This document shows positions 1,208 through 55,702 of a DNA stretch of 64,000 nucleotides, piece after piece (within the stretch, counting starts at the first letter, position 1; every line of letters begins with the position of its first letter). Under the pieces are notes generated by a model, which saw nothing but the letters and a program-made list of their open reading frames with translations, made no database searches and was not told the origin of the DNA. Position numbers and translations under genes: made by a program. This DNA comes from Micromonosporaceae bacterium (lineage in GTDB: Bacteria > Actinomycetota > Actinomycetes > Mycobacteriales > Micromonosporaceae). The stretch lies in contig DASXRC010000021.1 in NCBI GenBank assembly GCA_036506795.1, positions 17,190 through 81,189 on the forward strand, given 5' to 3'.

Positions 1208-1225
1208 GAAAGGCCAGCAGATGAG
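1194..1225. repeat. Direct repeat AGGCCAGCAGATGAG x2 (2-nt spacer) at the NRPS/PKS gene junction
   Basis: Copies read directly at 1194-1208 and 1211-1225. Copy 1 supplies the NRPS stop (TGA 1205-1207); copy 2 supplies the PKS start (ATG 1221). Confidence 0.9.
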
Positions 1226-4200
1226 CGAGAACACGGACAGCGCGGTCGAGCCGATCGCGGTCATCGGCCTGGCCTGTCGGGTGCCCGGCGCCGCCTCCCT
1301 CGACGAGTTCTGGGAGAACCTGCTGGGCGGGGTGGAGTCGGTCCACTTCTTCTCGCGCGAAGAGCAGGTCGCCATCGGGCTGCCCGAACGGGATCTCGAC
1401 GATCCCAGCTTCGTGCCGGCCGCTCCCGTGCTCGACGACGTCGCGGGATTCGACGCCGGGCTGTTCGGGATGACGCGGCGTGAGGCCGAGCTGCGGGATC
1501 CGCAGCAACGGCTATTCCTCGAGCTGTGCCACACCGCGCTGGAGAATGCCGGCTACGATCCCGGGCGCTATCCGAGCGACATCGGCGTCTACGGCGGCAT
1601 CGGCGCCGACGAGTACCAGTGGCTGTATATCCGGCGTAACCCGGCCGTGCTGGCCGCCACCGGGAATCTGGCCGTTTCCGTCGCCAACCACCCCGACTAC
1701 CTCGCGACGCTGGCCTCGTACAAGCTGAACCTTCGCGGTCCGAGCCTGACCGTCCACACCGCGTGCTCGACGACGCTGGTCGCGTTCCATCTGGCCTGCG
1801 AGGCCCTGCGCAACGGCGAGTGCGACATGGCCTTGACCGGGGGAGCCTCGATCGAGCTTCCGCCCGGGCGGGGGTACGTCCACGCCGACGGCGGCATCCT
1901 GTCCGTGGACGGGCACACCCGAACCTTCGACGCGTCGGCGAGCGGCACCGTCTGGGGCAGCGGGGGCGGCCTTGCCGTCCTTAAGCGTCTCTCCGACGCC
2001 CTCACCGACGGCGACCACATCCGGGCCGTGGTGCTGGGCAGCGCCATCAACAACGACGGGGCGACGAAGGTCGGTTTCTCGGCGCCGAGCCGTGACGGGC
2101 AGGCGTCGGTGATCGCGCAGGCCCTCGGCGTCGCGAACGTCGACCCCCGCACGGTGGGCTACGTCGAGGCACACGGCACCGCGACGGCGCTCGGCGACCC
2201 GATCGAGGTCGCGGCGTTGACCAGCGTCTTCGGTCGGGCGTCGACCGACACCGGCTGGTGCGCGCTGGGTTCGGTGAAGACAAACGTCGGCCACCTCGGC
2301 TCGGCGGCCGGCATCACCGGGCTGATCAAGACGGTGTTGTCTCTTGAGCACGGCCTGATCCCGCCGAGCCTGAACTTCGAGCGGCCCAACCCGAAGCTCG
2401 GCCTCGAGAACAGCCCGTTCTACGTCAACGCGACCCTGAGCAAGTGGCAACCGGACGACGGTTCGCGTCGGGCCGGTGTCAGCTCCTTCGGCATTGGCGG
2501 CACCAACGCGCATGTCGTCCTCGAGCAGGCGCCCGCACCCTCACGCCAACCGACGCCGCCAGTGGCAGAGACCGACCTGCGACCGACCCACCTGCTGCGG
2601 GTCTCGGCGCGGACCCAGGCCGCTCTCGACGCGCTGGCCGAGCGGCTGGCCGGGCACCTCGAGCGGCATCCCGACGTCGACCTCGCCGACGTCGCGTACA
2701 CGCTCCGGGTCGGGCGCGCTGAACTCGGGCACCGGTGTGCGGTGGTTGCCGGGGATGTCAGCCAGGCGGTGACCGGGCTGCGCGACCGGGAACGCCACAT
2801 CGCCGGCGCGCTGCCCGTCCGGCTGCCGCGGGTGGCCTTCCTCTACTCCGGGCAGGGTTCGCAGTACGCCGGGATGGGCGACGAGCTGTACCGGGCCAAC
2901 CCGGTGTTCCGCGACGCGGTCCAGGAGTGCCTGAACGCGCTGGACGGCGGCTTGGCCGACGAGCTGAGGCGCGTGCTGCTTTGCGCGCCGGACGGAGACG
3001 TCCACGCCAACGCCCGGCTGGCTCAGACCGCCCTCACCCAGCCCGCGCTGTTCACCGTCGAGTACGCGCTCGCCCGCCTCTGGGAGTCCGCCGGAGTCAC
3101 CCCGGCCGCCGCGATCGGCCACTCGATCGGCGAGTACGTCGCCGGCACGCTCGCCGGCGTCTTCCGCCCGTCCGACGCGGCTCGTCTCGTCGCCGGGCGC
3201 GGCCGGCTGATGCAGTCGATGCCGACCGGATCCATGCTCGCCGTGCAGCTCGACGAGGCCACGCTCGCCGGCCGCCTGCCGGACGGTCTGTCGATCGCGA
3301 CCGTCAACGGACCACGGGCGTGCGTCGTCGCCGGGGAGACCTCGCAGGTCGACAGCTTCGCCCAGGATCTGACGGCGAGCCGGGTCCCGTGCAAGCGGCT
3401 GCGGACGTCACACGCCTTCCACTCGCCGATGATGGAGCCGATCCTCGCGGAGTTCCGAGACGTCGTCGCCGGCGTGCCACGGCGGGCGCCGCAGGCACCG
3501 TTCCTGTCCAATGTGACCGGTGACTGGATCACTGCCGACGAGGCGACCGACCCGTCGTACTGGGCGCGGCACCTGCGGTCCACGGTGCGGTTCGGCGCGT
3601 GCGTGGCGACCCTGCTGGCCGACGGGGAGTGGCTGCTCGTCGAGTGTGGGCCCGGCAAACAGCTCGCCGGACTGGCGCGCATGCAGACCCCGCGCGACGG
3701 GGTGCCGCCCCTGGCCAGCCTGCCCGGGCCGGACGACCGGCAGACCGCCATGGAGGCCTTCCACACCACCGCAGGCCGGCTGTGGGTCAGCGGCGTCGCG
3801 CTCGACGGCGACGGCCTCCAGGGGAGGCGCCGCCGGGTGCCGCTCCCGCCTTATCCGTACGAGCGGAAGTCGTACTGGGTCGAGCCCACGGGGCCGCCGG
3901 CCTCCGCCGTAGCCGAGCCGACAAGGCGGCGGCCGCTCGATGAGTGGTTCACGGTGCCGGTCTGGCGGCAGGCGCTGCCGCGCGAACCCGCCGTGCCCGA
4001 GCGATGCCTCGTCTTCGCCGACGGTCCCGCCGCCGACGCCGTCGTCGCCGGACTCCGGGCGGCCGGCGCGCAGGTCATCCACGTCGCGCCGGGCACGGCG
4101 TACGCGAAGACCGGCGACGCCGCGTTCACCGTCCGGCCGGCCGCGCGGAGTGACTATGATGCGCTGTTCACCGATCTCGCGGCGCTGGGTGGCGTCCCCG

Positions 4201-6698
4201 CACGGGCCGTGCACGCCTGGGCGCTCGACGGGACGGTGGCCGCCGGTGACCCCGAGCTCGCCTGGGAGGCCCAGGACCGCGGCTTCTTCAGCCTGCTCTG
4301 CCTCACGCAGGCGGCCGCGACCGCCCAGGCGCCCCTCCACGTCGACGTGCTGACCGCGGGCACTCAGGACGTGACCGGAGGCGACGCGACCCGGCCCGAA
4401 CACGCGACCGTGGCCGGCATCGCGAAGGTCGTCCCGCTGGAGGTTCCGACGGTCACGGTGCGCCACGTCGACGTCGGCGACGACGTGGCCGACGCGGTCG
4501 ACGAGGTGTGCCGGGCTCCGGCGGACCGGGCGGTCGCGGTGCGTGGCGGGCGCCGCTGGATCCAGGACTACGAGCCGGTGACGCTCGCCGAGCCGACCGC
4601 CCCGCCGGGCCCGCGCGAGGGCGGCGCCTACCTCATCACGGGCGGGCTCGGCGGCCTGGGCATCACGCTGGCCGAGGACCTGGCGCGGCTGGCCCGGGCG
4701 AGGCTGATACTGGTCTCGCGGTCCGGGCTCCCGACCCGGTCGGAGTGGGACAGCCACCTGCGCCTGCACGGGACCACCGACCGGACGGGCAGGGCGATCG
4801 CCGCGATCCGCCGGATGGAGGACGCCGGCGCCGAGGTGCTGGTGTGCGCCGCGGATGTGTCCGATGAGGACGATCTGCGGAGCGTGCGTGAGCAGGTGTT
4901 CTCGACGTTCGGCCGCCTCGACGGCATCGTGCACGCCGCCGGCGTGCCCGGCGGCGGCATGACCGAGGTCAAGGAACGAGCGGCGGCCGAGGCCGTCCTG
5001 CTGCCCAAGGTGCGCGGCACGCTGATGCTTCGGCGCGTCTTCGGCGACCTACCGCTGGACTTCGTCACCTTGTTCTCGTCGGTGACCGCGGTCGCCGGCG
5101 GGTTCGGCCAGGTCGACTACTGCGCCGCCAACAACTTCCTCGACGCGTACGCGCGCGGCAGCCACGGGTGGTCCGCGCAGGTGACATCCATCAACTGGGG
5201 CGGCTGGCTGGAGGTCGGCATGGCCGCCGAGGTGGCCGCGCCCGCAACGTTCCGAGCGCTGCAGCACGGAGACCGGATCCGCCCGATCGACCATCCCGTG
5301 CTCACCGCCCACCACGAGGGCGGCGGCGAGGTGCTTCCATGGTTCAGCGGCGTCGTGGCGCCGGACACCCACTGGCTCCTGGACGAGCACCGCATCTCTG
5401 GCGTGCCGGTGGTTCCCGGCACGGCTCACCTGGAGACGGTGCGGGCCGCCTTCGCCGCGGCGTGGCCAGGAGCGGGTGACGTGGAGCTGCGTGACGTCGT
5501 GTTCGTCGAACCGATGGCGGTCGCGGACGGAGCCGCGGCCGAAGTCCGAGTGGCGTTCGCCGACGGCGTCGACTGCGTGGACTTCCAGCTTGCCGGCGTG
5601 CGGGCCGGTGCCACCACCGTGCACGTGCGCGGCAGCGCCGTCCGGCTCGACCCCGATCCCGCCCCGACGGTCGACCTGGCCACCGTCCGGGACCGCTGCG
5701 GTCTGACCGCGCACGATGTGGACCCAGCCGGCGAGCGGTCACACTCCGGGCTGCTGACGTTCGGAGACCGCTGGCGCGCCCTGCGTACGGTCCACATCGG
5801 ACCGGACGAGGAGCTGGCTCTCCTGGAGGCTCCTCCATCGGTCGCGGCCGAGCTGGACCGATGGGTGTTGCACCCGGCGCTGCTCGACGAGGCGACCTCG
5901 TTCGGCCGTCGGCACGGCGACGGCCAGTACCTGCCTCTCGGCTACGGCCGGATCCGGATACGCGGGGCGCTGCCGGCCCGGTTCTACAGCCACCTGCGCT
6001 ACCGGGGCGAGGCTCACGGCGAGGTGATCGCCGCCGACCTGTCGCTCCATGACGCGACGGGCCGCGAACTGGTCGCCATCACGGACTTTGTCCTGCGCCG
6101 CGTCGACGTGGCCGCAGTGACCGAGGCGGTCTCCGGCGTCGAGCCGGGCGCCGGCCCCTCCGGCACCGCGGCACTCCCGGAGGCGTCTGTCTCGACGGCG
6201 ACGGGCATTGCTCCGGCCGACGGAGCCGAGGCGTTCCGCCGGATCCTGGCCGCCAATCTGGCACCACAGGTGGTGGTCACCGCGCAGCCACTAGCACAGG
6301 TCGTGGCCGGCGTCACCAACGTCACCCAGGAGACCGTCGCCGACGAGCTCGTCGGCACGGCCGCCGCCGACCCTCGTCGCGACGCCAGCCGCGAGGGTTA
6401 CGTCGCGCCCCGAACCCGGCTGGAGACGACGCTAGCCGACGTGTGGGGTGCCGTCCTCGGCGTAGACGCGGTCGGCGTGGAGGACGACTTCTTCGACCTC
6501 GGCGGCAATTCGCTCGTCGCCGTCCAGTTGATCTCGGAGATCCGCAAGGCGACCGGGGCCCGACTGCCCATGCGCAGCCTCTTCGAGTCCCCGACGGTGG
6601 CCGGCATGGCCGCCCTCGTCGACGGCCTGGAGGCGGCCGCCGGGCCCGACCCGGGCGAGGACGCGATTCCCAGGCTGGCCAGGCCGACCGCCGAATGA
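1221..6698 (+). CDS. Type I polyketide synthase, one module, motif order KS-AT-KR-DH-carrier protein
   Basis: ATG 1221 is in frame with ORF 942..6698. KS motifs TACSTTL, EAHGTATALGDP, NVGHLGSAAG. AT motifs GHSIGEY and HAFH. KR motifs YLITGGLGGLG (about 4621) and YCAAN (about 5120). DH motifs HRISGVPVVP (His codon 5388-5390) and HPALLDE. Carrier motif FFDLGGNSL (Ser codon 6510-6512). Confidence 0.9.
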   Translation: MSENTDSAVEPIAVIGLACRVPGAASLDEFWENLLGGVESVHFFSREEQVAIGLPERDLDDPSFVPAAPVLDDVAGFDAGLFGMTRREAELRDPQQRLFLELCHTALENAGYDPGRYPSDIGVYGGIGADEYQWLYIRRNPAVLAATGNLAVSVANHPDYLATLASYKLNLRGPSLTVHTACSTTLVAFHLACEALRNGECDMALTGGASIELPPGRGYVHADGGILSVDGHTRTFDASASGTVWGSGGGLAVLKRLSDALTDGDHIRAVVLGSAINNDGATKVGFSAPSRDGQASVIAQALGVANVDPRTVGYVEAHGTATALGDPIEVAALTSVFGRASTDTGWCALGSVKTNVGHLGSAAGITGLIKTVLSLEHGLIPPSLNFERPNPKLGLENSPFYVNATLSKWQPDDGSRRAGVSSFGIGGTNAHVVLEQAPAPSRQPTPPVAETDLRPTHLLRVSARTQAALDALAERLAGHLERHPDVDLADVAYTLRVGRAELGHRCAVVAGDVSQAVTGLRDRERHIAGALPVRLPRVAFLYSGQGSQYAGMGDELYRANPVFRDAVQECLNALDGGLADELRRVLLCAPDGDVHANARLAQTALTQPALFTVEYALARLWESAGVTPAAAIGHSIGEYVAGTLAGVFRPSDAARLVAGRGRLMQSMPTGSMLAVQLDEATLAGRLPDGLSIATVNGPRACVVAGETSQVDSFAQDLTASRVPCKRLRTSHAFHSPMMEPILAEFRDVVAGVPRRAPQAPFLSNVTGDWITADEATDPSYWARHLRSTVRFGACVATLLADGEWLLVECGPGKQLAGLARMQTPRDGVPPLASLPGPDDRQTAMEAFHTTAGRLWVSGVALDGDGLQGRRRRVPLPPYPYERKSYWVEPTGPPASAVAEPTRRRPLDEWFTVPVWRQALPREPAVPERCLVFADGPAADAVVAGLRAAGAQVIHVAPGTAYAKTGDAAFTVRPAARSDYDALFTDLAALGGVPARAVHAWALDGTVAAGDPELAWEAQDRGFFSLLCLTQAAATAQAPLHVDVLTAGTQDVTGGDATRPEHATVAGIAKVVPLEVPTVTVRHVDVGDDVADAVDEVCRAPADRAVAVRGGRRWIQDYEPVTLAEPTAPPGPREGGAYLITGGLGGLGITLAEDLARLARARLILVSRSGLPTRSEWDSHLRLHGTTDRTGRAIAAIRRMEDAGAEVLVCAADVSDEDDLRSVREQVFSTFGRLDGIVHAAGVPGGGMTEVKERAAAEAVLLPKVRGTLMLRRVFGDLPLDFVTLFSSVTAVAGGFGQVDYCAANNFLDAYARGSHGWSAQVTSINWGGWLEVGMAAEVAAPATFRALQHGDRIRPIDHPVLTAHHEGGGEVLPWFSGVVAPDTHWLLDEHRISGVPVVPGTAHLETVRAAFAAAWPGAGDVELRDVVFVEPMAVADGAAAEVRVAFADGVDCVDFQLAGVRAGATTVHVRGSAVRLDPDPAPTVDLATVRDRCGLTAHDVDPAGERSHSGLLTFGDRWRALRTVHIGPDEELALLEAPPSVAAELDRWVLHPALLDEATSFGRRHGDGQYLPLGYGRIRIRGALPARFYSHLRYRGEAHGEVIAADLSLHDATGRELVAITDFVLRRVDVAAVTEAVSGVEPGAGPSGTAALPEASVSTATGIAPADGAEAFRRILAANLAPQVVVTAQPLAQVVAGVTNVTQETVADELVGTAAADPRRDASREGYVAPRTRLETTLADVWGAVLGVDAVGVEDDFFDLGGNSLVAVQLISEIRKATGARLPMRSLFESPTVAGMAALVDGLEAAAGPDPGEDAIPRLARPTAE

Positions 6699-6719: not shown

Positions 6720-6941
6720 GTGTCTGACACCGAAGGCAGCGGCGGATCCCGCTACCTGGTGGTCATCAACGACGAGGAGCAGTACTCCATCTGGGCGGAG
6801 GACCGGCAGATCCCGGCCGGCTGGCGGGCGACCGGCTTCGCTGGCGACAAACTGGAGTGCCTGTCACACATCGAGACCGTTTGGACGGACCTGCGGCCGC
6901 GCAGCGTGCGCCTGGCCATGGCATCGGAGGAGGACACATGA
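6720..6941 (+). CDS. MbtH-like protein
   Basis: 73 aa with GTG start and GAGGAGGA RBS upstream. Signature RYLVVINDEEQYSIW...IPAGW...CLSHIETVWTDLRP, with the three conserved Trp. Confidence 0.93.
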   Translation: MSDTEGSGGSRYLVVINDEEQYSIWAEDRQIPAGWRATGFAGDKLECLSHIETVWTDLRPRSVRLAMASEEDT

Positions 6942-7888
6942 CCACGGCGTTGCCCATGACCGTGCCCGCCGACGGCACGCCCATCATCGAGTACATCACC
7001 GATCGGCGAGCCGAGCTGCGCGCCGCGCTGGCCGAGCACGGGGCGCTGCTGTTTCGGGGCTTCGACGTCGGTGGGGTCGACGGGTTCGACCGGGTGGTCC
7101 GCGCTCTGTCCGGCGCACCGCTGACCTACACGGAGCGCTCGTCGCCGCGCAGCACGATCAAGGGTCAGGTGTACACATCGACGGACTACCCCGCGGAGGA
7201 GGAGATCTTCCTCCACAACGAGAACTCCTACCAGGCGAGCTGGCCCCTGACCCTGTACTTCTACTGCATCCAGCCGCCCACCTCGCTCGGCGCCACACCA
7301 CTCGCCGACGTACGCCGGGTATACGCCGAGATCGATCCGACCATCCGCGACGAGTTCGAGCGGCGGCGCTGGACGCTGGTGCGCAACTTCTACCGCGATT
7401 TCGGTACGCCCTGGCAGGAGGTGTTCAACACCGACGACCCGGACGAGGTGGCCGCGTACTGCGGCCGGAACGACATCGGGATCGAATGGACGGCGGACGG
7501 CGGGTTGCGCACCAGGGCGGTGCGCGACGCGGTGCATCGCCGGCCCGGCAGCGAGGCGCCGAGATGGTTCAACCACGCCACGTTCTTCCACGTGACCACC
7601 CTCGCCAAGGACCTCCAGGAGGCGCTCCTCGCGATGTTCGGTGAGCAGGGGCTGCCCACCAACACGTACTACGGCGACGGCGGATCGATCCCGACCGAGG
7701 TGATGGACCAGCTCCGGGCCGCGTACCGATCGGTGACCGTTCGATTCGACTACGAGCGCGACGACGTGCTGGTCGTGGACAACATGACCGCCGCACACGG
7801 CCGGGAGCCGTTCACCGGGCCCCGGAAGATCGCGGTGGCGATGGCCGAGCCGTACGCGCCGGCCCCCAGCGGGAGCAGCGATGACTGA
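6938..7888 (+). CDS. TauD/TfdA (clavaminate-synthase-like) Fe(II)/2-oxoglutarate dioxygenase, probable amino-acid beta-hydroxylase
   Basis: ATG 6938 overlaps the MbtH stop (ATGA). Facial-triad-like FLHNENSY (HxE) and C-terminal [19 protein letters not shown]. Embedded between NRPS genes. Confidence 0.82.
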
Positions 7889-10800
7889 GTGGAGCGTCCC
7901 GGCCTCGTACGCGCAGGAGCGGATCTGGATCGCGAGCCAGGTGGACCCCGCGTCGCCGGTCTACAACGTCTCGGTGCCGTGGCGCGTCCCGGCCGGTCTG
8001 ACCGGCGAGCAGGTCACCGCAGCGCTCGGCGCGCTGGTCCGCCGACACGAGTCGCTGCGTACGCACCTACGCGTCGAGAACGGCACGCTGATGCAGGTCG
8101 TGCGGGATCGCGAACGCATCGACATGCCCGTCGTCGACCTGCGCGCCAGCTCCGATCAGCAACGGTCGGAGCGGGTCGACGCTCTCGCCGAGGAGCTGGC
8201 CCAAACGGCGATACCGCTCGACCGGCCGCCACTGTGGCGGGCCCGGCTGGTGCGCCTCGACGGCGAGGAATGGCTCCTGCTGTTCGTCGTCCACCACGCG
8301 GTCTTCGACGGCGGCTCCCTGGCCGTGTTCGGGCGCGACCTGCGGGCGTTGTCGCAGTTCGCGCTGACGGGCGCGCCGTTGGACCTGCCAGAGCCCGAGA
8401 TCCAGTACGCGGATTTCGCGGTCTGGCAGCGCGACCGGCTCTCCGGCGCCGAACTGAACCGGCAGCTCGCGTACTGGCGCGATCGACTGGCCGGCGCGGC
8501 TCCGGTCATCGGGCTCCCGCTCGACCACCCGCGCCCGTCGAAGCTGGGCTTCGCCGGCGACGAGATCCACTTCGAGCTGCCGGCCGGCACGTTCGATCGA
8601 GTCGGGGAGCTTGCTCGCGACTGCTCGGCGACACCGTTCACGGTGTTGCTGGCCGCGTTCGCCGCGCTGCTGTCCCGGCTGTCCGGCAGCGACGACCTGG
8701 TCGTGGGCGTCTCCACCGCGGGCCGGGACCGGCCCGAGCTCGACGACGTGATCGGGATGTTCGTCAACCCGGTCGCCCTGCGCTGCGACGTCGGCGGCGA
8801 TCCCACCGTCGCCGAGCTGATCGGTCGGGTCCGGGGATCCCTGATCGAGGCGCTCGAACACGCCGAGGCTCCGTTCCACCGCGTCGTCGACGCGGTCGCG
8901 CCGGCCTGGAACTCCTCGACACAACCGATCTTCCAGGTCGCTCTCAACTTCATTCCGGAGGCCGGCCTGGACCCCATCCCGCTGGGCACGACGAAGGACG
9001 ACCTCGCCTTCGACCTCACGGCCACCGAGGGCCGGCTGCTCTACCGCACGGCGCTCTGGGACCGGTCCACGGCCGAGGCGATCGTCCGGCGCTACCTGCG
9101 GCTGGTCCGGGCCGCCCTGGCCGACCCCGGTGCCCGCGTGTCGCAGATGCCGCTGCTCGACGGAGCCGAGGAGCGGCTCGTCCTCCAGACGTGGAACGAC
9201 ACGGCCCGGGAGAGCGCACCGGAGACGGTGACCGCGCTGATCGAGCGACAGGCGGCCCGCGGCCCGGACGCCGTCGCCGTCGTCGACAACGCAACGGCGC
9301 TCACGTACGCACAGCTCAACGGCGGCGCGAACCGGCTGGCTCGGGCCCTGATCGAGCGCGGCGCCGGGCCCGAGTCGCTCGTGGCGCTCGTCCTGCCGCG
9401 CTCCGCGGACCTCGTCGTGGCGCTGCTGGCGGTGCTCAAGGCGGGGGCGGCCTACGTGCCGATCGACCCGGACTATCCCGCGGAACGGATCGCGTATCTC
9501 CTCGGGGACGCGAGGCCGGCCGTCGTGGTGGCGTGCGTCGAAACCGCCGGCATCGCACCGGCGGACGCGCTGGTGCTGGCCCCATCGGCGGCCGGGCCGG
9601 CGAACCCCGATCTCACCGACGCTGACCGCGTCGCACCGCTCCGGCCGGGGCACTCGGCGTACGTGATTTACACCTCCGGCTCCAGCGGCAAGCCCAAGGG
9701 AGTCGTCGTCGAGCACCGGTCGCTGCACGCGTACCTGACGTGGGCGCGGGCCGCGTACCCCGGCCTGGCCGGCACCGCGCTGCTGCACTCCGCCTTGTCG
9801 TTCGACCTCACCGTGACCGGGCTGCTCGGCACGCTGAGCGCTGGCGGCACGATCCGGCTGGCCGGGCTCGACGAGGCCGCGGCCCGGTCCGGTGGTCCGC
9901 CGACTTTCCTGAAGGCAACTCCCGGCCAACTGTCCCTGTTGGACGATGGGCTTTCCCCGACCGACGATCTCGTGCTCGGCGGTGAGGCGTTGGCGGCCGA
10001 AGCCCTGGACGCTTGGCGGTCGACGCATCCGGGAGCGCGGGTCACGAACGAGTACGGCCCCACCGAGGCCACCGTCGGCTGCGTCAGCGCGCGATTCGAG
10101 CCGGGTGACGTCCTACCGCCCGGCCCGGTCGCCATCGGCTGCCCCAGCTGGAACACCCAGGCATACGTCCTTGACCGGGGGTTGCGGCCGGTTCCGCCGG
10201 GCGCCGTCGGCGAGCTGTACATCGCCGGTGATCAGGTCGCCCGAGGCTATCTCCGGCGGCCAGCACTGACCGCGGAGCGGTTCCTGCCGTGCCCGTTTGG
10301 AGCGCCCGGACGGCGGATGTACGCCACCGGTGACCTCGCGCGGTGGCGGGCCGATGGCACGCTCGAGTACCTCGGCCGGACCGATCAGCAGATCAAGGTG
10401 CGCGGCATCCGGGTCGAGCCCGGCGAGATCGAGTCGGCGCTGCTGGCTCGGCCGGGGGTACACGAGGCGGCGGTGGCGCTGCGCGCGCACGACGGAGCCG
10501 ACGACGAGACGCTCGTGGCGTACGTGGTGGGCACGGCGGACGGGGCCGACCTCGCCGACGGCCTCGCCCGCGTGCTGCCGGCACCGTTGGTGCCGAGCGC
10601 GTTCGTCCCGCTCGACCATCTTCCGACGACCCCGAACGGCAAGCTCGACCGCGAGGCGCTGCCCGCCCCCGTGCTGGCCTCCTCGCCGGGTTACGTCGCG
10701 CCCAGCACGGACTCCGAGGCGTTCGTGGCGGAGGTCTTCGCCGACATCCTGGGCGTGGAGAAGGTCGGCGCGCGGGACGACTTCTTCGCGCTGGGCGGCA

Positions 10801-11009
10801 ACTCGCTGCGCGGGATGCGGGCGATGGCGCGGATCCGCGCCGAGGTGGCCGTCGACGTGCCGATGCGGTCCTTGTTCACCCATCCTGTGGTAGCCGACCT
10901 GGCGGCCGAGATCGAGCGGCTGATCGGTGCCGAGCTCGACGACATGACCGACGCCGAGGTCGCGGCCCTCCTCGGCGGTGGGACGACCGGAGGGGGCAGT
11001 GCGGCATGA
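7881..11009 (+). CDS. Non-ribosomal peptide synthetase module C-A-PCP (hand-derived specificity code DLTKVGEVGK, Asn-like)
   Basis: C domain [10 protein letters not shown] domain [53 protein letters not shown]. The start overlaps the dioxygenase stop. Confidence 0.92.
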
Positions 11010-14000
11010 CGTCGGTGCGGGAGGGCGCCGTCGGGCACGCCACCGGCGTGGCCGGCGACACCGATCGCGCCGCCGCCCGGGACGCGCTGATCGCACAACG
11101 GTTGCGCCAGCGCCGGGACGGTCCCTCGCCGGTCGCCATTCCGCGGCGGCCGCCGGGCATGACACCCCCGCTGTCGTACGCCCAGGAGCGAGTCTGGTTC
11201 ATGAACCAGCTGGCGCCCGGCGAAGCCGCGTACCACATAGCCGTGCCCCTGCGGATCCGCGGGCCACTCGACTTCGACCGGCTGCGCGCGGCGCTGGCCG
11301 AACTGAGCCGGCGGCACGAGGCGTTGCGAACCCGGTTTCCGGCCGACGAGGACGGTCGGCCGCGCGTCGTCATCGAGGACGTCGTGGAGGTGCCGTTGCG
11401 GCTCGTCGACGCGCCGACCGAGGGGGCCGCGCAGGCCCTCATCGACCGGGCCGCGACCGAGCCATTCGACCTGGCGGACGGCCCGCTGCTGCGGGCGTTG
11501 CTCGTACGCCTCGCGGACGACGACCATCAGCTGCTGCTCTGCCAGCACCATATCGTCGGCGACGGCTGGTCGGTCGACGTGCTGTTGCGCGACTTGATCA
11601 CCTTCTACCGGTCGGGCTCGCTGCCGGCGCTGCCGGTCCAGTACGGCGACTTCGCGCGCTGGGAGGCCCAGCTGCTCACCGGCCCGGACGCCCGCCGCCA
11701 CCTCGACTACTGGCGACAGCGGCTCGCCGGCGTGCCGTCGCTGGAGCTGCCCCTCGACCGTCCGCGCCCCGCGACGCAGACCTACCGCGGCGACTTCATC
11801 GAGCTCACCGTCGACCGCGGCGTGACCGATGGACTCCTCGCCCTCGCCCGGAGCGCCGGAGGCACCATGTTCATGGCGCTGCTCGCGGCGTACCAGGTAT
11901 TGCTGGCGCGGCATTCCGGGCAGCGGGACTTCGCCGTTGGCGCCTCGGTCGCGGGCCGGTCCGCTCCCGACCTCGAGAACGTCGTCGGCATGTTCATCAA
12001 CATGCTGCCGCTGCGCGCCGAACTCGACGGCGATCCCACGTTCGCCGGCCTGCTGGCGCGCACGCGCCGGTGCGTGCTGGACGCGTTCGACCACGCCGAC
12101 GTGCCCTTCGCCAAGGTGGTGCGCGAGCTGGGCGTGCCCCGCGATGTCACCCGGTCGCCGGTTTTCCAAGCCATGTTCGTATTGCAGAACTACGAGATGG
12201 GGCGATTCAGTGACGTCGCCCGCGACGCCGATGTCTCGTTCGAGTGGCAGCCGATGGAGCTGCGCGCGACGCGGTTCGACATCGAGCTCCACCTGGTGGA
12301 GGTGTCCGGCGGGCTCTGGGGCAAACTCGTCTACAACACCGACCTGTTTCGTCGGTCCACTGTGGAGCGGCTCGCCACCGCGTACCAGACCCTCCTCCGC
12401 TCGATCGTGGCCGATCCCGGTGCGCGAGTGTCCGAACTCGACCTGCTTGCTCCCGACGAGCGTGCCCTGCTGCTGGACGGCTGGAACGACACGGCGACCG
12501 AATACCCCCACGCCGCGACGCTGCATCGCCTCGTCGAGGCACAGGTGGCCCGCACGCCGGACGTTGTGGCGGTCAGCGGCGAGGACCGGTCGGTGACGTA
12601 CGCCGAGCTGAACGCCGTGGCCAACAAGATCGGGCATCGGCTGCGCGCGGCCGGCGTCGGGCGCGAGACGCTGGTCGGCGTCTGCGCCGAACGGTCGGTC
12701 GAGCTCGTGGCGGCGCTGCTCGGAGTGCTCAAGGCGGGCGGCGCCTACGTGCCGCTCGATCCGGAGTATCCGCCCGACCGCCTTGCGTTCATGCTCACGG
12801 ATTCGGCCGCGCCGGTGGTGCTCGTCCAAGCCCACCTGCGGGAGGTGCTGCCCGCGACGGACGCCGCCGTGCTGGTTGTCGACGACGAGTCCGAGTGGGC
12901 GGGTCAGCCCGTGGACGATCCCGAGCCGGTCGCCGAGGCGACCAACGCCGCGTACGTCATCTACACGTCGGGCTCCACTGGGCGGCCCAAGGGCGTGCCG
13001 AACACCCATCGCGGCGTCGTGAACCGGCTCGACTGGATGCAGAAGGCGTACCGGCTGGGTGCCGGAGACCGCGTGCTGCAGAAGACGCCGGCGAGCTTCG
13101 ACGTCTCGGCGTGGGAGTTCTTCTGGCCGTTGCAGACCGGCGCGCGGCTCGTGCTCGCCAAGCCGGGCGGCCACAAGGACGTGGCGTACCTGCGCGACCT
13201 GATCGCCGCCGAGCGGGTGACCACCACGCACTTCGTGCCGTCGATGCTCACCGCCTTCCTGGCCCAGGAGGGCGTCGAGCGATGCGCCGAGCTGCGCACC
13301 GTGATCTGCAGCGGCGAGGAGCTGCCGGTCGGGACGGCGGTCGAGTTCACCTCCCGGCTGCCACGGTGCGAGCTGCACAACCTGTACGGGCCTACCGAGG
13401 CCGCCATCGACGTCAGCTCCTGGCAGTGCCGGCCGGAGGCGTTGGCCGGGGCGGCGACCGTGCCGATCGGTGCACCGATCGACAACCTGCGCCTGTACGT
13501 CCTGGACGAGCGACTGAACCCGGTGCCGGTGGGGGTCGTCGGGGAGCTCTACATCGCCGGCGTCGGGGTGGCCCGCGGCTACCACCGGCGACCGGCGCTC
13601 ACCGCGGACCGGTTTCTGCCCGAGCCGTTCGACGCGGAACCGGGCGGCCGGATGTACCGGACTGGCGACCGGGCACGCTGGCGCGCCGACGGCACGCTCG
13701 AGTTCCTCGGCCGGCTCGACCATCAGGTCAAGCTCAGGGGGCTGCGCATCGAGCTGGGCGAGGTGGAGGCCACCCTGCGCGGTTGCCATGGCGTGACCGA
13801 CGCGGCCGTCGTCGTACGCGAGGATGCGCCCGGCGACAAGCGCCTGGTCGCGTACGTGGTCGGCCCCGCGGCGAGCGCGGAGCTGAAGCCGGCCCTCAAG
13901 ACCACGCTGCCGGAGTACATGGTGCCGCAGGCGTTCGTCGCGCTGGACCGGCTGCCGTTGACGCCGAACGGCAAGCTCGACCGGGCGGCGCTGCCCGCAC

Positions 14001-16534
14001 CCGTCGTCACCCGCGATTCGTCGGTCGACCTCGTCGACCCGCGTTCGGAGACCGAGCGCCTGCTCGTGCGGATCTGGTCCGAGATCCTTGGTGTGCCGTC
14101 CCTGGGCATCGACGACGACTTCTTCCACCTCGGCGGCCATTCCATGCTGGCGACCCAGGTTGTGGCGAGGATCCGCAGACTCAACCGGAGCGGCCGCCGG
14201 GTCGGCGTGATGGACCTGTTCCAGCAGCGGACCGTGCGCGAGCTCGCCGCCTTCATCGATGCGGCGGTCGACCACGCCGCCGAGCGTCGCCTGCTCTACG
14301 AGCTGACCCGGCCGATCCCGGCCGGAGAGCGGACGCTGACCTACGTCTGCGTGCCGTACGGCGGGGGCAGCGCTGTGGTCTACCAACCGCTCGCCGACGC
14401 GCTGCCCCCCGGGCACGCGCTGTACGCGCTCGCGATTCCGGGACACGACGTCGGCCTCGACGAGACGGCCGTGCCGTTCGAGGAGCTGACCACCCGGGTC
14501 GCCGCCGAGGTGCTCGAGCGCATCGCGGGCCCCATCGCGTTGTACGGCCATTGCGGGGTCGGCAGCGCCATCGTCGCCGAGGTGGCCCGCAAGCTCGAGG
14601 CGGCCGGGCGCGAGCTGGAGGCCGTCTACATCGGAGGGATGTTCCCGTTCGCCCGGCCGAGGGGCGCCTACGCGGCGCTGCGCACCCGGTTGGAGAGGCT
14701 CCGCAGCAACCGCCACTACGCGAGCTGGCTGACGTCGATGGGCGTCGACATCAACGAGCTCGACCCGGACCAGGCGGACCGGATCATCAGCAACATGCGG
14801 GCGGACTCCCGGGCGTCCGAGGAGTACTTCACTCTCCTGCTCGACCACCGCGCCGAGAAGCTGCGCGCCCCGATCATCTCCGTGGTCGGGTCGGAGGACC
14901 CGGTCACGGACTACTTCACCGAGCGGTACGCCGAATGGCAGTTCCTCTCCGACACGCTCGGCCTCGTCGTGCTCGACCGGGCCGGCCACTTCTTCCTCAA
15001 GTACCGCGCCGACGAACTGGCCGAGATCGTCACCCGGGTGCACCCGGCAGTCGCGTCGGACGACGGCGGCCATCTCACGCCCGAGTCGCGCGGCCCGGAC
15101 GCCGCCTGGACGGTGCGGGGCTGGCAACGGGTCGGCGGCCGGCGGATGGACATCACCGTCGTCCGGCCGAGCATGGGCCGGTTCCTGGCGATCGCGGCCG
15201 GTCAGCTTGTCTCCACGGCCGGGTCGGCGCTGACCGCGTTCGCGCTCCCGGTCTGGCTCTACACGCGTACCGGTTCGGTGGCGAACCTGGGCCTGCTGTG
15301 GTCGCTGGCCCTGGTGTGCGGGGTGCTCACGCTGCCCGTGGCCGGCGCCGTCGCGGACCGACTCGACCGGCGGCGCATCATGGTGATCGCCAGCGGCGTG
15401 TCCGGGCTGCTCCAGCTGACGCTCGCCGGCCTGCTCTGGTCGGGCGGTCTGAACCTATGGGAGATCTACCTGCTCGTGTCGCTCGGCCAGGTGGCGGCCT
15501 CGTTCCAACGGATCGCCTTCCAGACCGCGATACCGCAACTGGTGCCGAAGCGCTACCTCGGTCACGCCACCGGCGTGGCACAGCTGTCCAACGGCTTCTC
15601 GATGCTGCTGATGCCGGTCGTGGCGGCCGGCCTGCTTGCCGCCATCGGGCTGACCGGCATCCTGCTGTTGGATGTGGCCAGCTATGTCGTCGCGATCGTG
15701 ACGCTGCTGCTCGTGCGCTTCCCGGACCTGCTGGGCTGGCGGCCGAGGGAACCGTTGCTGACGGCGATCGCGCGGGGCGGCCGCTACTCGTGGAACCACC
15801 GCGGGTTCCGGATGATGCTGGCGTACTTCGCCCTGGGCAACATCTTCCTGGCCCCGGCCCTGGTGCTCGTGGCGCCGCTGGTGCTCGCGTTCGGCACGGT
15901 GGCGCAGGTCGCGCAGGTCGCGGTCGCCGAGGCGCTCGGCGCGATCGCCGGCGGTGCGGCGATGGCGATCTGGGGCGGGCCACGACGTCGGCGCATGATC
16001 GGCGTTCTCATCGCCAACGCCGGCACCGCCACGGGATGCTGCGTCATCGGGATCCATGCGTCGGTCCCGGTTGCGGGGGTCGGCATGTTCGGCATGGCCG
16101 CGGCGATGGCCACCGCCCAGGGGATCTACATCACGATCGTTCAGGTGAAGGTGCCGCAGCGGTACCACGGTCGGGTCTTCGCGATCAACCAGACGCTGGC
16201 GTGGTCGACGCTGCCGATCGGCTTCGCGCTGCTCGCCCCGGCGGCCACCAGACTGTTCGAGCCGATGCTGGCGCCGGGTGGGGCGCTGGCCGGGTCCGTC
16301 GGTGTCCTGATCGGCGTCGGACCGGGCCGGGGGATCGGCTTCGGATACGTCGTGTTCGGGCTGGCCCTGGCGGTCGTGACCGCGGGTGGCGCGCTCGTCC
16401 GCATGCTGCGCCGGTTCGACATCGAGGTTCCCGACGCGCTGCCGGACGACCTCGTCGGTGCCCAGGAGCGCCGGCAGCGCTTGGCCTCGTCCGCGGCCCG
16501 GCGTCCGGTCGCCGCACCGGCACGTCGGGATTGA
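11006..16534 (+). CDS. Non-ribosomal peptide synthetase C-A-PCP-TE fused in frame to an MFS transporter (code DVWHISLIDK, Ser-like)
   Basis: ATG 11006 overlaps the previous stop (ATGA) and is in frame with ORF 10343..16534. C domain [10 protein letters not shown] domain [46 protein letters not shown] and then a 12-TM-like region follow, with no stop until 16534. Confidence 0.9.
14290..15060 (+). other. Thioesterase domain (type-II-TE-like motifs) with Cys at the nucleophile position
   Basis: Motifs [19 protein letters not shown] (TGC at 14552-14554 where GHSxG is expected), GSEDP and AGHFFL. Confidence 0.75.
15146..16531 (+). other. MFS (MFS_3 / EntS-like) transporter domain at the C-terminus of the NRPS
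   Basis: Hydrophobic multi-helix sequence begins at [26 protein letters not shown] motif-A-like [13 protein letters not shown]. Same frame as the TE, with no intervening stop in the ORF track. Confidence 0.8.
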
Positions 16535-16604
16535 CGCCGGCTGTGCCCGATGCTGTGATGCTGCGTACCGCCGGCCCCGGGGCGGCCGAGTCGAGGGAGT
16601 GGGG

Positions 16605-17057
16605 ATGGGCTTCGCCTCATTGGACGACCTGCGTAGTGCGGCCGGCACCGAGCTGGGCGTGACCGACTGGATCGAGATTGACCAGGACCGGATCGACCAG
16701 TTCGCCGACGCGACCGGCGACCACCAGTGGATCCACGTCGACCCGGAGCGCGCCCGGAGCGGCCCCTTCGGCGGCACGGTGGCGCACGGGTACCTGACGC
16801 TGTCGTTGATCCCGGCCTTGGCGGCCTCGGTGTGGTCGCTGGACAACGCCCGGATGGGCGTGAACTACGGCCTCAACAAGGTCCGCTTCCCCGCGCCGGT
16901 ACCGGTCGGCTCGCGCGTGCGCGCGCGCATCGAGCTGCTCGCCGTCGACGACGTGCCGGGCAACGGCGTCCAGCTCACCGCCCGGGTCACGGTGGAACGG
17001 GAGGGTGGCGACAAGCCGGTCTGCGTCGCCGAGACCGTGTCGCGGGTGTACGCGTGA
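16605..17057 (+). CDS. MaoC-family (R-specific enoyl-CoA hydratase-like) dehydratase
   Basis: ATG 16605 preceded by GAGGGAGTGGGG. Hot-dog motif ADATGDHQWIHVDPERA...GGTVAHGYLTLS. Confidence 0.85.
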   Translation: MGFASLDDLRSAAGTELGVTDWIEIDQDRIDQFADATGDHQWIHVDPERARSGPFGGTVAHGYLTLSLIPALAASVWSLDNARMGVNYGLNKVRFPAPVPVGSRVRARIELLAVDDVPGNGVQLTARVTVEREGGDKPVCVAETVSRVYA

Positions 17058-30033: not shown

Positions 30034-30182
30034 GCCGCCCATCCTCCCCCGGCAGGCGCCCGCGGAGGCTCAGGTTCGGCCGCTTGGACCGCCGCCGTGC
30101 GGCCACTGTCGGGTGGCGCGCGGGAGGTGTAGGTTCAGCCGCACCGAGCGATCAACCGTCCCGGGTGTCAGGGGGTGCAGTC

Positions 30183-36673: not shown

Positions 36674-36729
36674 GTCCTCAGCGAATCTGCGTGGGCGCCG
36701 CGGCGTCCAACAGAAACCCGGGCGCGATT

Positions 36730-36746
36730 GACAACCATTGGTTGTC
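36730..36746. promoter_or_regulatory. 17-bp perfect palindrome GACAACCA-T-TGGTTGTC in the MMPL/LysR divergent intergenic region
   Basis: Read directly. It lies 57 nt from the MMPL start (36673) and 17 nt upstream of the LysR GTG (36763). It fits the T-N11-A style of LTTR boxes. Confidence 0.55.
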
Positions 36747-36762
36747 GACGCAGATTGGAGGC

Positions 36763-40785: not shown

Positions 40786-40947
40786 CGGTCAGCGTGCCAC
40801 TCGACCTCCGGGGATAACCCTGACCGCCATCGGGGTCCTGGCGCCCGAACTCTTCCGGGATGAGGGCGGGTCGTTCCCGGATGGCGCAGGGTCCCGCCGA
40901 CCCTAGCGTCGGTGGCATTCAGGAATCTCACAGGAGGGGAGCCCGAG

Positions 40948-54316: not shown

Positions 54317-54327
54317 GCTGCTTAACA
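54317..54327. promoter_or_regulatory. Second copy (reverse strand) of TGTTAAGCAGC, upstream of the GH20-GH2 genes
   Basis: GCTGCTTAACA read at 54317-54327. It lies in an AT-rich patch and overlaps the stop codon of the PadR-GT87 gene. Confidence 0.4.
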
Positions 54328-55684: not shown

Positions 55685-55702
55685 AGGGTCCCGCCATGTC
55701 CA

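What the first reader, a model, noticed from the sequence alone, without database searches (positions are those of the whole stretch)
14290..15060. Terminal thioesterase with cysteine in place of the catalytic serine
Seen:
- The TE carries type-II-TE-like motifs: PYGGGS, GSEDP, AGHFFL.
- Its nucleophile elbow reads LYGHCGVGS, with TGC at 14552-14554 exactly where GHSxG is expected.

Established: the few NRPS thioesterases known to use a Cys nucleophile are linked to strained-ring release, namely the beta-lactone in obafluorin (ObiF) and the beta-lactam in sulfazecin (SulM).

Inference (speculative): the last module is predicted to load Ser, a beta-hydroxy amino acid, so a beta-lactone or another non-hydrolytic release is conceivable.
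Basis: partly seen in the sequence, partly recalled or inferred. Interest (0 to 1): 0.65.

Follow-up and report, generated by a model that had tools for sequence, protein, structure and literature searches.

The report
Cysteine thioesterase fused to an exporter
The last enzyme of a peptide-making assembly line releases its product with a cysteine instead of the usual serine and is fused to a membrane export pump; this combination is widespread in bacteria, but I found no study of it.

Summary
TGC at 14552-14554 encodes the nucleophile of a thioesterase (TE) domain. Cys, Asp and His align with the ObiF1 catalytic triad (Cys1146/Asp1254/His1284). ObiF1 and then SulM, both cysteine TEs, are the best solved-structure matches by sequence and by predicted fold. 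The codon is TGC in all 80 related genomes examined, so it is not a sequencing error. The Ser of GVGS is variable and cannot be the nucleophile.

The TE is not terminal. The ORF (11006-16534) runs on into a 12-helix MFS transporter, giving C-A-T-TE-MFS. This fusion defines a large family: at least 544 species representatives, and 136 of the 143 family representatives examined carry Cys. Databases name it "non-ribosomal peptide synthetase/MFS transporter". I found no paper on it.

The last module is predicted to load Ser (DVWHISLIDK), so a beta-lactone is possible. Support is only partial. Most MFS-fused relatives end in Asp/Asn-like, Orn-like or other residues and have no hydroxylase nearby. 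Other characterised cysteine TEs (SrbD, MacB) make no strained ring.

Verdict: a real cysteine release domain, and a new variant (exporter fusion) of a known kind. The release chemistry is unresolved; I put beta-lactone at about 0.3.

The parts
11006..16534 (+). One gene for a 1842-aa NRPS termination module fused to a transporter: C-A-T-TE-MFS. The ATG at 11006 overlaps the stop codon of the preceding NRPS gene (ATGA).
   Evidence: ORF listing, translation and start position. Pfam: Condensation 55-490, AMP-binding 511-860, AMP-binding_C 919-990, PP-binding 1019-1084, Thioesterase 1114-1342, MFS_1 1397-1731.
12536..13975 (+). [quoted passage not shown]
   Evidence: Alignment to the GrsA-PheA reference positions. 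The assignment to Ser rests on my own knowledge of Stachelhaus codes (Ser = DVWHLSLIDK).
14060..14257 (+). Peptidyl carrier domain, with the FFHLGGHS phosphopantetheine-attachment motif at 14120-14143.
   Evidence: Pfam PP-binding, 51 bits; motif position.
14345..15031 (+). Thioesterase domain of the ObiF/SulM (type-II-TE-like) class, with a Cys-Asp-His triad.
   Evidence: Pfam PF00975, 60.6 bits. Best PDB sequence hit is ObiF1 6n8e, E 3.9e-30. AF2 model pLDDT 83.6, and Foldseek ranks ObiF1, then SulM, then RifR and BorB.
14552..14554 (+). TGC codon for the catalytic Cys (residue 1183 of the protein; Cys93 in TE numbering).
   Evidence: Read directly. Aligned to ObiF1 Cys1146 (PMC6668435). TGC in 80 of 80 loci.
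14897..14899 (+). Asp of the triad (GSEDP), at the 'position II' (RifR-like) location.
   Evidence: Aligned to ObiF1 Asp1254. Invariant in 80 loci and across the family.
14987..14989 (+). His of the triad (AGHFFL).
   Evidence: Aligned to ObiF1 His1284. Invariant in the 80 loci, and H in 139 of the 143 representatives examined.
15032..15193 (+). TE-MFS linker. It contains a conserved Trp (W278 in TE numbering) inside a predicted beta-strand.
   Evidence: W278 is invariant. Strand 278-285 appears in both AF2 models.
15194..16531 (+). MFS transporter domain resembling the EntS, Mef and 'transmembrane secretion effector' types. It carries MFS motif A ([11 protein letters not shown]).
   Evidence: Pfam MFS_1 80.3 bits and MFS_3 37.7 bits. 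NCBIfam TIGR00900, Mef and EntS matches, all below their cut-offs. AF2 gives an all-helical bundle at pLDDT about 90, and Foldseek returns generic 12-TM MFS transporters.
7881..11009 (+). Preceding NRPS module C-A-T, with A-domain code DLTKVGEVCK (Asn/Asp-type).
   Evidence: Pfam. Code taken from alignment plus hand mapping of position 278.
6938..7888 (+). TauD/TfdA-family Fe(II)/2-oxoglutarate dioxygenase, a likely amino-acid beta-hydroxylase for the pathway.
   Evidence: Pfam PF02668, 158.8 bits. Syntenic at 70-80% identity in the Micromonospora and Actinophytocola loci.
1221..6698 (+). Type I PKS module with domain order KS-AT-KR-DH-ACP. The AT carries GHSIG and HAFH (malonyl-type).
   Evidence: Pfam; start codon and motifs. 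Conserved upstream of the NRPS genes in related loci.
2..1207 (+). 3' end of an upstream NRPS gene (A-T), cut by the window edge.
   Evidence: Pfam AMP-binding (C-terminal part), AMP-binding_C and PP-binding.

Best explanation
The TGC codon encodes the genuine catalytic nucleophile of a chain-release thioesterase of the ObiF/SulM class. That class has a type-II-TE-like fold, a Cys-Asp-His triad, and the Asp on the later strand. The domain is not terminal: it is fused in frame to a 12-helix MFS efflux-type transporter, so the termination module reads C-A(Ser)-T-TE(Cys)-MFS.

Proposed mechanism:
1. The finished chain ends in Ser. It was built by an upstream NRPS module, a KS-AT-KR-DH-ACP PKS module and an Asn/Asp-type module that has a neighbouring TauD hydroxylase.
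2. The chain passes from the carrier-domain phosphopantetheine thiol to the TE cysteine by transthioesterification. This gives a thioester acyl-enzyme.
3. The thioester is resolved and the product is handed to the covalently attached exporter at the membrane.

Shown: the identity and conservation of the triad, the homology to ObiF1 and SulM, and the fusion. Inferred: thioester catalysis and export coupling.

The near-absolute conservation of Cys over Ser (136 to 5) suggests that release is not plain hydrolysis. For this Ser-terminated line the single most likely outcome is attack by the Ser beta-hydroxyl, giving an N-acyl-serine beta-lactone as in ObiF. I put that sub-claim at only about 0.3. 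The confidence given below is for the core statement, that this is a catalytic-Cys release domain fused to an exporter.
For: - The sequence alignment to ObiF1 (E 3.9e-30) puts Cys, Asp and His on Cys1146, Asp1254 and His1284, and the IGG glycine on Gly1173 (residue roles from PMC6668435).
- Foldseek on two AF2 models (pLDDT 83.6 and 88.1) ranks ObiF1 first and SulM second, ahead of all Ser TEs.
- All 80 loci carry TGC, the triad is invariant, and the TE-MFS fusion is present where the ORF is complete.
- Family-wide, 136 of the 143 representatives examined have Cys, and 97 of those carry an MFS after the TE. Cys, Asp, His and MFS motif-A residues are invariant across 36 diverse members.
- The last A domain has a Ser-type code.
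- In ObiF1 the C1146S mutant gives only hydrolysed acid (PMC6668435). In SrbD, C-to-S or C-to-A abolishes the product (PMC10127202). In MacB-TE, Ser permits acylation but not cyclisation (PMC13288461). In every tested case the Cys is functionally required.
- Cys TEs of this family without an MFS are 15 of 19 Ser-, Thr- or ObiF-like-terminated.
Against: - No product is known for any member, and I found no paper on the fusion.
- For the beta-lactone sub-claim: only 16 of 69 MFS-fused representatives end in Ser or Thr, 31 are Asp/Asn-like, and others are Orn-, Gly-, Cys- or Glu-like.
- Close relatives at 50-57% TE identity (P0166, P0190, P0191) have Asp-like codes.
- The Embleya, Paenibacillus and Vibrio loci show no hydroxylase.
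- The nucleophile elbow is GHCGVG, with one extra residue relative to ObiF GHCAG, so the local geometry may differ.
- Export coupling is inferred from the fusion alone. The AF2 pTM of 0.78 hints at a defined TE-MFS arrangement, but no PAE or coordinates were available.
Confidence: 0.8

Rival explanations
1. Hydrolytic release. The Cys-TE simply hydrolyses the peptidyl thioester to a linear C-terminal Ser acid, which the fused MFS exports. On this view the Cys is a lineage trait with no link to ring formation.
For: Terminal residues in the MFS-fused family are heterogeneous and mostly lack a beta-hydroxyl. Minimal systems such as the Vibrio ACP + C-A-T-TE-MFS locus and the Paenibacillus FAAL-ACP + GT4 + C-A-T-TE-MFS locus look like N-acyl-amino-acid makers. 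Five natural Ser variants exist within the family.
Against: Hydrolysis does not need Cys: ObiF1 C1146S hydrolyses well (PMC6668435). Even so, Cys is kept in 136 of 143 representatives and in 80 of 80 close loci, which points to selection for thioester chemistry.
Confidence: 0.3
2. Intermolecular acyl transfer. The thioester acyl-enzyme is captured by an external amine, thiol or alcohol (a free amino acid, a sugar or a lipid head group), as proposed for the sorangibactin SrbD Cys-TE. The MFS either supplies the acceptor or takes away the adduct.
For: SrbD, AntB and BbchF are Cys TEs proposed to off-load onto homocysteine (PMC10127202, PMC13573596). Thioester intermediates favour aminolysis and transthioesterification (established chemistry). 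A glycosyltransferase sits beside the Paenibacillus member. This reading would accommodate any terminal residue.
Against: No acceptor-supplying gene is evident next to the window gene. The conserved neighbours are only the PKS, TauD and NRPS genes. The MFS resembles efflux types (EntS, Mef) rather than importers or flippases. The closest homologue, ObiF1, cyclises intramolecularly.
Confidence: 0.2
3. An in-cis editing (type-II-like) thioesterase that only clears mis-primed carriers. Real chain release would be done elsewhere.
For: The fold and triad layout are those of type II TEs such as RifR and BorB. In Micromonospora sagamiensis a second TE, fused to Lant_dehydr_N, lies upstream in the cluster.
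Against: The domain occupies the canonical release position after the last carrier domain, and it is the only release-type domain in the part of the cluster visible in the window. ObiF1 and SulM share the same fold and are true release enzymes (PMC6668435, PMC11298585).
Confidence: 0.03
4. An artefact. Either a sequencing error has turned TCC or AGC into TGC, or the real nucleophile is the Ser of GVGS, or the gene is a decaying pseudogene.
For: None found.
Against: TGC occurs in 80 of 80 independent genomes. Ser97 is variable. The ORF is intact over 1842 codons with high GC3. The whole architecture is conserved.
Confidence: 0.005

Closest known systems
ObiF1 thioesterase domain (obafluorin beta-lactone synthetase; PDB 6n8e)
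   Same: It is the best sequence match (E 3.9e-30, about 32-37% identity) and the best fold match. The Cys, Asp and His align, as do the His before the Cys and the Gly at the beta5 position. The Asp is at the RifR-like position. The domain sits in cis after a C-A-T module that loads a beta-hydroxy amino acid.
   Different: ObiF1 continues into an MbtH-like domain, not a transporter. Its elbow is GHCAG rather than GHCGVG. Its substrate is an aryl-capped beta-hydroxy-homoPhe derivative, not a PKS-NRPS chain ending in Ser. The beta-lactone is proven for ObiF and unknown here.
SulM thioesterase domain (sulfazecin monobactam; PDB 8w2c, 8w2d)
   Same: It is the second-best fold match (TM up to 0.84 on the target). 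It has a Cys nucleophile and the Asp at position II.
   Different: The SulM hallmarks are absent. The window has His-Cys-Gly instead of Gln-Cys-Asn, a Ser-type code instead of the Dap code (Asp2337, Val2338, Trp2341, Glu2380, Met2409, Asn2411, Ala2435, Asp2443, Asp2444), and no sulfotransferase among the genes scanned (PMC11298585, PMC12042044).
SrbD, AntB and BbchF Cys thioesterases (sorangibactin, anthrochelin, bulbichelin)
   Same: These are terminal NRPS TEs with an essential Cys (PMC10127202, PMC13573596). They show that a Cys TE need not make a four-membered ring.
   Different: They terminate Cys-derived thiazoline siderophore lines and are proposed to off-load onto homocysteine. No MFS fusion is described for them.
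MacB-TE (macolacin Cys-dependent macrolactam cyclase)
   Same: The Cys nucleophile is strictly required for non-hydrolytic release (PMC13288461).
   Different: MacB-TE groups with serine-type (type I) cyclases and its Asp116 lies close after Cys89. The window TE is of the type-II-like class, with the Asp 115 residues downstream of the Cys.
Type II editing thioesterases (RifR, BorB, RedJ, YbtT)
   Same: They share the fold, the PxxGGS, GxxDP and GGHFF motif set, and the triad topology.
   Different: They are stand-alone proteins with a Ser nucleophile and a hydrolytic proofreading role.
EntS- and Mef-type MFS exporters
   Same: The C-terminal domain matches MFS_1, MFS_3 and TIGR00900, and weakly matches EntS and Mef. 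It has motif A and a 12-helix model.
   Different: Those exporters are separate genes. Here the transporter is covalently fused to the biosynthetic enzyme. All the NCBIfam scores are below the family cut-offs.

Membership tests
Thioesterase domain, alpha/beta-hydrolase (Pfam PF00975) | Profile score above the gathering threshold | tested here: met
   60.6 bits against 26.4, covering profile positions 4-222 of 226.
Thioesterase domain, alpha/beta-hydrolase (Pfam PF00975) | Nucleophile at the strand-turn-helix elbow, with canonical G-x-Nu-x-G spacing | tested here: inconclusive
   The Cys is in the nucleophile column and lies at the end of strand 87-91/92, where helix 93/94-109 begins, in the AF2 models. 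The motif is G-H-C-G-V-G, however: Val sits at Nu+2, and there is one extra residue relative to ObiF GHCAG. The more distant relatives have GHCxG.
ObiF/SulM-class cysteine release thioesterases | Cys as catalytic nucleophile | tested here: met
   Aligned to ObiF1 Cys1146. Invariant in 80 loci.
ObiF/SulM-class cysteine release thioesterases | Asp of the triad at 'position II' (RifR-like), with Gly at the beta5 position | tested here: met
   The Asp of GSEDP aligns to Asp1254 and the second Gly of IGG aligns to Gly1173 (PMC6668435). Both are invariant.
ObiF/SulM-class cysteine release thioesterases | Closest structural neighbours are ObiF1 and SulM rather than Ser TEs | tested here: met
   Foldseek ranks 1-5 are ObiF1 and SulM, for two independent models.
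ObiF/SulM-class cysteine release thioesterases | C-terminal residue with a beta-nucleophile (beta-OH or beta-NH) | tested here: met
   The last A-domain code, DVWHISLIDK, is Ser-type. This is a prediction only. It does not hold for much of the MFS-fused family.
ObiF/SulM-class cysteine release thioesterases | Product is a four-membered lactone or lactam, and Cys-to-Ser switches the enzyme to hydrolysis | not testable with these tools
   Needs product isolation and mutagenesis.
SulM-type beta-lactam-forming TE | Gln-Cys-Asn motif around the nucleophile | tested here: not met
   The window has His-Cys-Gly. Criterion from PMC11298585.
SulM-type beta-lactam-forming TE | Dap-specific last A domain, and a sulfotransferase in the cluster | tested here: not met
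   The code is DVWHISLIDK, whereas the SulA3 code has Asp-Asp at positions 8-9 (PMC12042044). No sulfotransferase appears among the window ORFs scanned with Pfam.
Type II (editing) thioesterase | Stand-alone protein with a GHSxG serine | tested here: not met
   The domain is embedded between a carrier domain and an MFS domain, and its nucleophile is Cys.
Major facilitator superfamily transporter | Pfam MFS_1 or MFS_3 above threshold, motif A, and a 12-helix bundle | tested here: met
   MFS_1 scores 80.3 against 33.4 and MFS_3 scores 37.7 against 27. [11 protein letters not shown] is present, and its D and R are invariant across the family. The helical model scores pLDDT about 90 and matches Spns2, LmrP, VMAT2 and QacA.
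EntS, Mef or TIGR00900 (DHA3) exporter equivalogs | Score above the NCBIfam cut-off | tested here: not met
   TIGR00900 scores 149 against 319.6, EntS 64.7 against 324, and Mef(B) 79 against 800. The domain is related to these families but is not an equivalog of any of them.
'Non-ribosomal peptide synthetase/MFS transporter' fusion proteins (database name) | C-A-T-TE and MFS in one polypeptide | tested here: met
   Single ORF 11006-16534. The same architecture is seen in 77 of 80 loci with a complete ORF, and in Embleya, Paenibacillus and Vibrio proteins that carry this name.

The most novel reading that the evidence does not exclude
The TE(Cys)-MFS fusion may be a dedicated 'release-and-eject' device. 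The cysteine would make a reactive or strained product (here an N-acyl-serine beta-lactone warhead) through a thioester intermediate. The covalently attached transporter would then expel it at once, so that the electrophile never accumulates in the producer's cytoplasm. If so, this is a previously unrecognised, widespread mode of self-protection and channelled export in non-ribosomal peptide synthesis. It would also mark the PKS-TauD-NRPS cluster seen in about 60 Micromonospora species genomes as a source of new beta-lactone natural products.
Probability: 0.2. Interest if true: 0.8.

Novelty: new variant of a known kind. Interest (0 to 1): 0.55.

Why it matters
Cysteine thioesterases are reported to be about 2% of known TEs (PMC13288461). 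In every case tested so far, the Cys is what enables non-hydrolytic release: a beta-lactone, a beta-lactam, a macrolactam, or homocysteine capture.

This work shows that the largest pool of such domains may be an unstudied family in which the Cys-TE is welded to an MFS exporter. The family is found in at least 544 species representatives, from actinomycetes to Paenibacillus and Vibrio. It includes a cluster found in about 60 Micromonospora species genomes. Working out what these modules release, and whether catalysis is physically coupled to export, could do three things:
- reveal new reactive-warhead metabolites;
- give a sequence rule for predicting release chemistry;
- provide the first enzyme-transporter fusion model for product channelling in assembly-line biosynthesis.

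The question is directly testable with one point mutant and one domain deletion.

Tried and rejected
- Exact-sequence look-ups of the window's PKS and TauD proteins, to extend the contig upstream, found nothing.
- Homologue searches through the word-indexed database returned mostly short fragments. The A-T search led only to a different, frameshift-ridden cluster (L082).
- Five literature searches for the NRPS-MFS fusion or for this Micromonospora cluster found nothing relevant. One search was a syntax error.
- The Schaffer 2017 obafluorin paper is not held.
- The LgnA type II TE paper proved irrelevant, because LgnA has a Ser nucleophile.
I replaced it with an alignment of library representatives.
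- A second cluster-member look-up gave no names.
- I considered the downstream MaoC and crotonyl-CoA-reductase-like genes as extender-unit suppliers and rejected the idea. They are absent from all related loci, and the AT has a malonyl-type HAFH motif.
- I considered a SulM-type beta-lactam and rejected it, because the motif and A-domain criteria are not met.
- I considered Ser97 as the nucleophile and rejected it, because it is not conserved.
- I could not measure triad distances or the TE-MFS interface, because model coordinates and PAE are not exposed.
Full report
**1. What is in the sequence.**
The window is 71% G+C actinomycete DNA. The finding lies inside one long ORF. The real gene starts at the ATG at 11006, which overlaps the stop codon of the preceding gene, and it ends at 16534, giving 1842 aa. 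Pfam reads the protein as follows:
- Condensation, residues 55-490
- AMP-binding, 511-860, plus AMP-binding_C, 919-990
- PP-binding, 1019-1084
- Thioesterase, 1114-1342 (60.6 bits against a cut-off of 26.4)
- MFS_1, 1397-1731 (80.3 bits), with MFS_3 over the same stretch

One part of the description is wrong. The thioesterase is not terminal, because about 500 further codons encode a transporter.

**2. Is the Cys the nucleophile?**
A search of all PDB chain sequences with the 290-aa TE region gives holo-ObiF1 (6n8e) as the best hit by a wide margin: E 3.9e-30, against 5.8e-18 for the next. The chain index in that alignment is offset by +20 from the published numbering. Allowing for this, the alignment matches:
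- the window Cys to ObiF1 Cys1146
- the Asp of GSEDP to Asp1254
- the His of AGHFFL to His1284
- the second Gly of YIGGM to Gly1173

Kreitler et al. showed by mutagenesis that the first three of these form the catalytic triad, and that an introduced side chain at Gly1173 (G1173L, G1173D/D1254A) sharply lowers activity (PMC6668435, read). The type II thioesterases BorB and RifR align Ser-to-Cys at the same column.

An AlphaFold2 model of the TE (pLDDT 83.6, pTM 0.86) places the Cys between strand 87-91 and helix 94-109, which is the classical nucleophile elbow. Foldseek against the PDB ranks ObiF1 first and the four SulM TE chains next, ahead of RifR, BorB and every serine TE. A second model, built from a different and more diverse alignment, gives the same order. 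So the two structurally solved cysteine thioesterases are this domain's nearest solved relatives.

**3. Is it an error, or chance?**
It is neither. The best 80 are from Micromonospora (most of them), Actinophytocola, Actinokineospora, Amycolatopsis, Streptosporangium, Longispora and others. All 80 have YGHCGVG, and all 80 use TGC. Cys93, Asp208 and His238 are invariant (TE numbering from nt 14276). Ser97 of GVGS is not invariant.

An exhaustive HMMER search of 1.84 billion cluster representatives found 3024 hits at E up to 1e-3 and 199 at E up to 1e-30. Among the 143 representatives examined (the 150 listed hits minus those already fetched), 136 carry Cys and 5 carry Ser at the nucleophile column. 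Asp and His are conserved in essentially all.

**4. The unexpected part: the TE-MFS fusion.**
In the 80 loci the distance from PYGGGS to the stop codon is 706-737 residues wherever the ORF is complete, so the transporter is always fused. Among the Cys-bearing library representatives, 97 of 136 have an MFS domain after the TE. These proteins are 1.8 to 4.6 kaa long, which means the fusion terminates assembly lines of many sizes.

NCBI and UniRef name some of them "non-ribosomal peptide synthetase/MFS transporter". Named examples come from Embleya, Paenibacillus and Vibrio nigripulchritudo. The family thus spans Actinomycetota, Bacillota and Gammaproteobacteria.

The MFS part weakly resembles TIGR00900, Mef and EntS efflux proteins, all below their cut-offs. 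It keeps MFS motif A ([11 protein letters not shown]), whose Asp and Arg are invariant across 36 diverse members. The TE-MFS model has pLDDT 88.1 and pTM 0.78. No PDB entry covers both halves. Five full-text searches found no paper on the fusion.

**5. Genomic context.**
Upstream in the window lie:
- the 3' end of an NRPS gene (A-T)
- a PKS module with the unusual order KS-AT-KR-DH-ACP and a malonyl-type AT (HAFH)
- a TauD/TfdA dioxygenase
- a C-A-T module whose code, DLTKVGEVCK, is Asn/Asp-type

PKS-TauD-CAT-CAT-TE-MFS is syntenic across the Micromonospora loci, at 55%, 75%, 65% and 72-84% identity respectively. The MaoC, reductase, AI-2E and pirin genes downstream are not conserved and are probably outside the cluster. 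In M. sagamiensis the cluster additionally has an MbtH gene, an A-T-C-T gene and a TE+Lant_dehydr_N gene. The rest of the window, 20-64 kb, holds ordinary chromosomal genes.

**6. What does the TE do?**
The last A domain has the code DVWHISLIDK, one residue off the canonical Ser code. In ObiF1, C1146S gives only the hydrolysed beta-hydroxy acid (PMC6668435). Two lines of evidence temper the idea.

First, the literature has moved on. The sorangibactin SrbD TE has an essential Cys and is proposed to off-load onto homocysteine (PMC10127202). AntB and BbchF share this feature (PMC13573596). MacB-TE is a Cys-dependent macrolactam cyclase, and Cys TEs are put at about 2% of known TEs (PMC13288461). 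A Cys nucleophile therefore signals non-hydrolytic release in general, not strained rings specifically.

Second, I extracted the last A-domain code from 88 family representatives:

| Last A-domain code | All 88 | 69 with MFS fused |
|---|---|---|
| Ser-type | 21 | 13 |
| Thr-type | 7 | 3 |
| Asp/Asn-like | 32 | 31 |
| Orn/Dab-like | 6 | 6 |
| DM[FY]H (ObiF-length proteins) | 3 | 0 |
| Other (Gly-, Cys-, Glu-like and so on) | 19 | 16 |

The split by architecture is striking. Cys TEs without an MFS are 15 of 19 Ser-, Thr- or ObiF-like. MFS-fused ones are only 16 of 69 Ser or Thr. Close relatives of the window TE (50-57% identity) include Asp-like termini.

The Embleya locus (four modules plus MbtH), the Paenibacillus locus (FAAL-ACP, GT4, C-A-T-TE-MFS, PPTase) and the Vibrio locus (ACP plus C-A-T-TE-MFS) show no hydroxylase. 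The MFS-fused clade is therefore not specialised for beta-hydroxy termini.

**7. Best explanation and rivals.**
High confidence (about 0.8-0.9): the Cys is the catalytic nucleophile of an ObiF/SulM-class release domain. It takes the chain from the carrier domain as a thioester, and the fused MFS places release at the membrane for immediate export. The fusion and the triad are shown. Thioester catalysis and export coupling are inferred.

The chemistry that resolves the thioester is open. My estimates are:
- Ser beta-lactone, about 0.3
- plain hydrolysis, about 0.3, disfavoured by the strong retention of Cys
- capture by an external nucleophile, about 0.2
- other cyclisation or oligomerisation, most of the remainder
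- an editing role, 0.03
- an artefact, below 0.01

**8. Comparison with known families, and novelty.**
The domain passes every sequence and structure test I could apply for the ObiF/SulM class. It fails the SulM-specific criteria: Gln-Cys-Asn, the Dap code, and a sulfotransferase. It is not a type II editing TE, because it is embedded in the synthetase and its nucleophile is Cys. Its elbow, GHCGVG, carries one extra residue relative to GHCxG; this marks the clade around the window gene, while more distant members have GHCxG.

A cysteine TE as such is known. The in-frame exporter fusion, its breadth, and the cluster seen in about 60 Micromonospora species genomes appear unstudied. I rate this a new variant of a known kind, with moderate interest (0.55). 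The most novel reading not excluded, a release-and-eject device for reactive warheads, has probability about 0.2.

Noticed in passing
window 15146-16534 (same ORF as the finding): The thioesterase is followed in frame by a 12-helix MFS transporter domain. The fusion is conserved in all related loci that have a complete ORF and in 97 of the 136 Cys-bearing family representatives.
   Followed up: yes
window 1221-6698 (+): The PKS module has the unusual domain order KS-AT-KR-DH-ACP, with the DH after the KR. It has a malonyl-type AT (GHSIG, HAFH) and an HxxxGxxxxP DH motif. The order is conserved in the Micromonospora clusters.
   Followed up: partly
window 6938-7888 (+) and 7881-11009 (+): A TauD-family dioxygenase overlaps the start of a C-A-T module whose code, DLTKVGEVCK, is Asn/Asp-type. 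This suggests a beta-hydroxy-Asn or beta-hydroxy-Asp at the penultimate position, which would be a second possible internal nucleophile for release.
   Followed up: partly
window 16386-18037 (+): MaoC-dehydratase and Zn-ADH/crotonyl-CoA-reductase-like genes directly follow the NRPS gene. They are absent from all 80 related loci, so they are probably not part of the cluster.
   Followed up: partly
L083 1-4478 (Micromonospora sagamiensis AP023438): The homologous cluster starts with a gene that combines a Thioesterase domain with a lantibiotic-dehydratase N-terminal (Lant_dehydr_N) domain. An A-T-C-T gene follows, and an MbtH gene lies after TauD. The window's own upstream gene has a different architecture.
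   Followed up: no
protein library representatives P0158-P0300: Cys TEs of this family without an MFS are almost all Ser-, Thr- or ObiF-like-terminated (15 of 19). MFS-fused ones are mostly Asp/Asn-like, Orn-like or other. Five members (P0181, P0182, P0194, P0219, P0278) have Ser at the nucleophile and are natural 'revertants' that could be compared.
   Followed up: partly
L084 6837-16346 (Paenibacillus vini); L086 9800-15628 (Vibrio nigripulchritudo): Minimal versions of the system exist. Paenibacillus has FAAL-ACP + GT4 glycosyltransferase + C-A-T-TE(Cys)-MFS + PPTase. Vibrio has a 65-aa carrier protein + C-A-T-TE(Cys)-MFS. Both look like N-acyl-amino-acid makers with a built-in exporter, and they would be the simplest experimental models.
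   Followed up: no
window 28144-30069 (-): A single ORF combines an NhaA-type Na+/H+ antiporter domain with a C-terminal DsbA/thioredoxin domain.
   Followed up: no
window 34532-36847 (-) and 40864-43173 (+): Two MMPL-family transporter genes flank a LysR regulator and a Ser/Thr kinase with a FIMAH domain. They appear unrelated to the NRPS cluster.
   Followed up: no
window 54322-55770 (-): A stop-to-stop ORF shows a PadR-like HTH (residues 65-106) upstream of a GT87 glycosyltransferase domain (residues 173-403). This could be a fusion, or two genes read as one.
   Followed up: no
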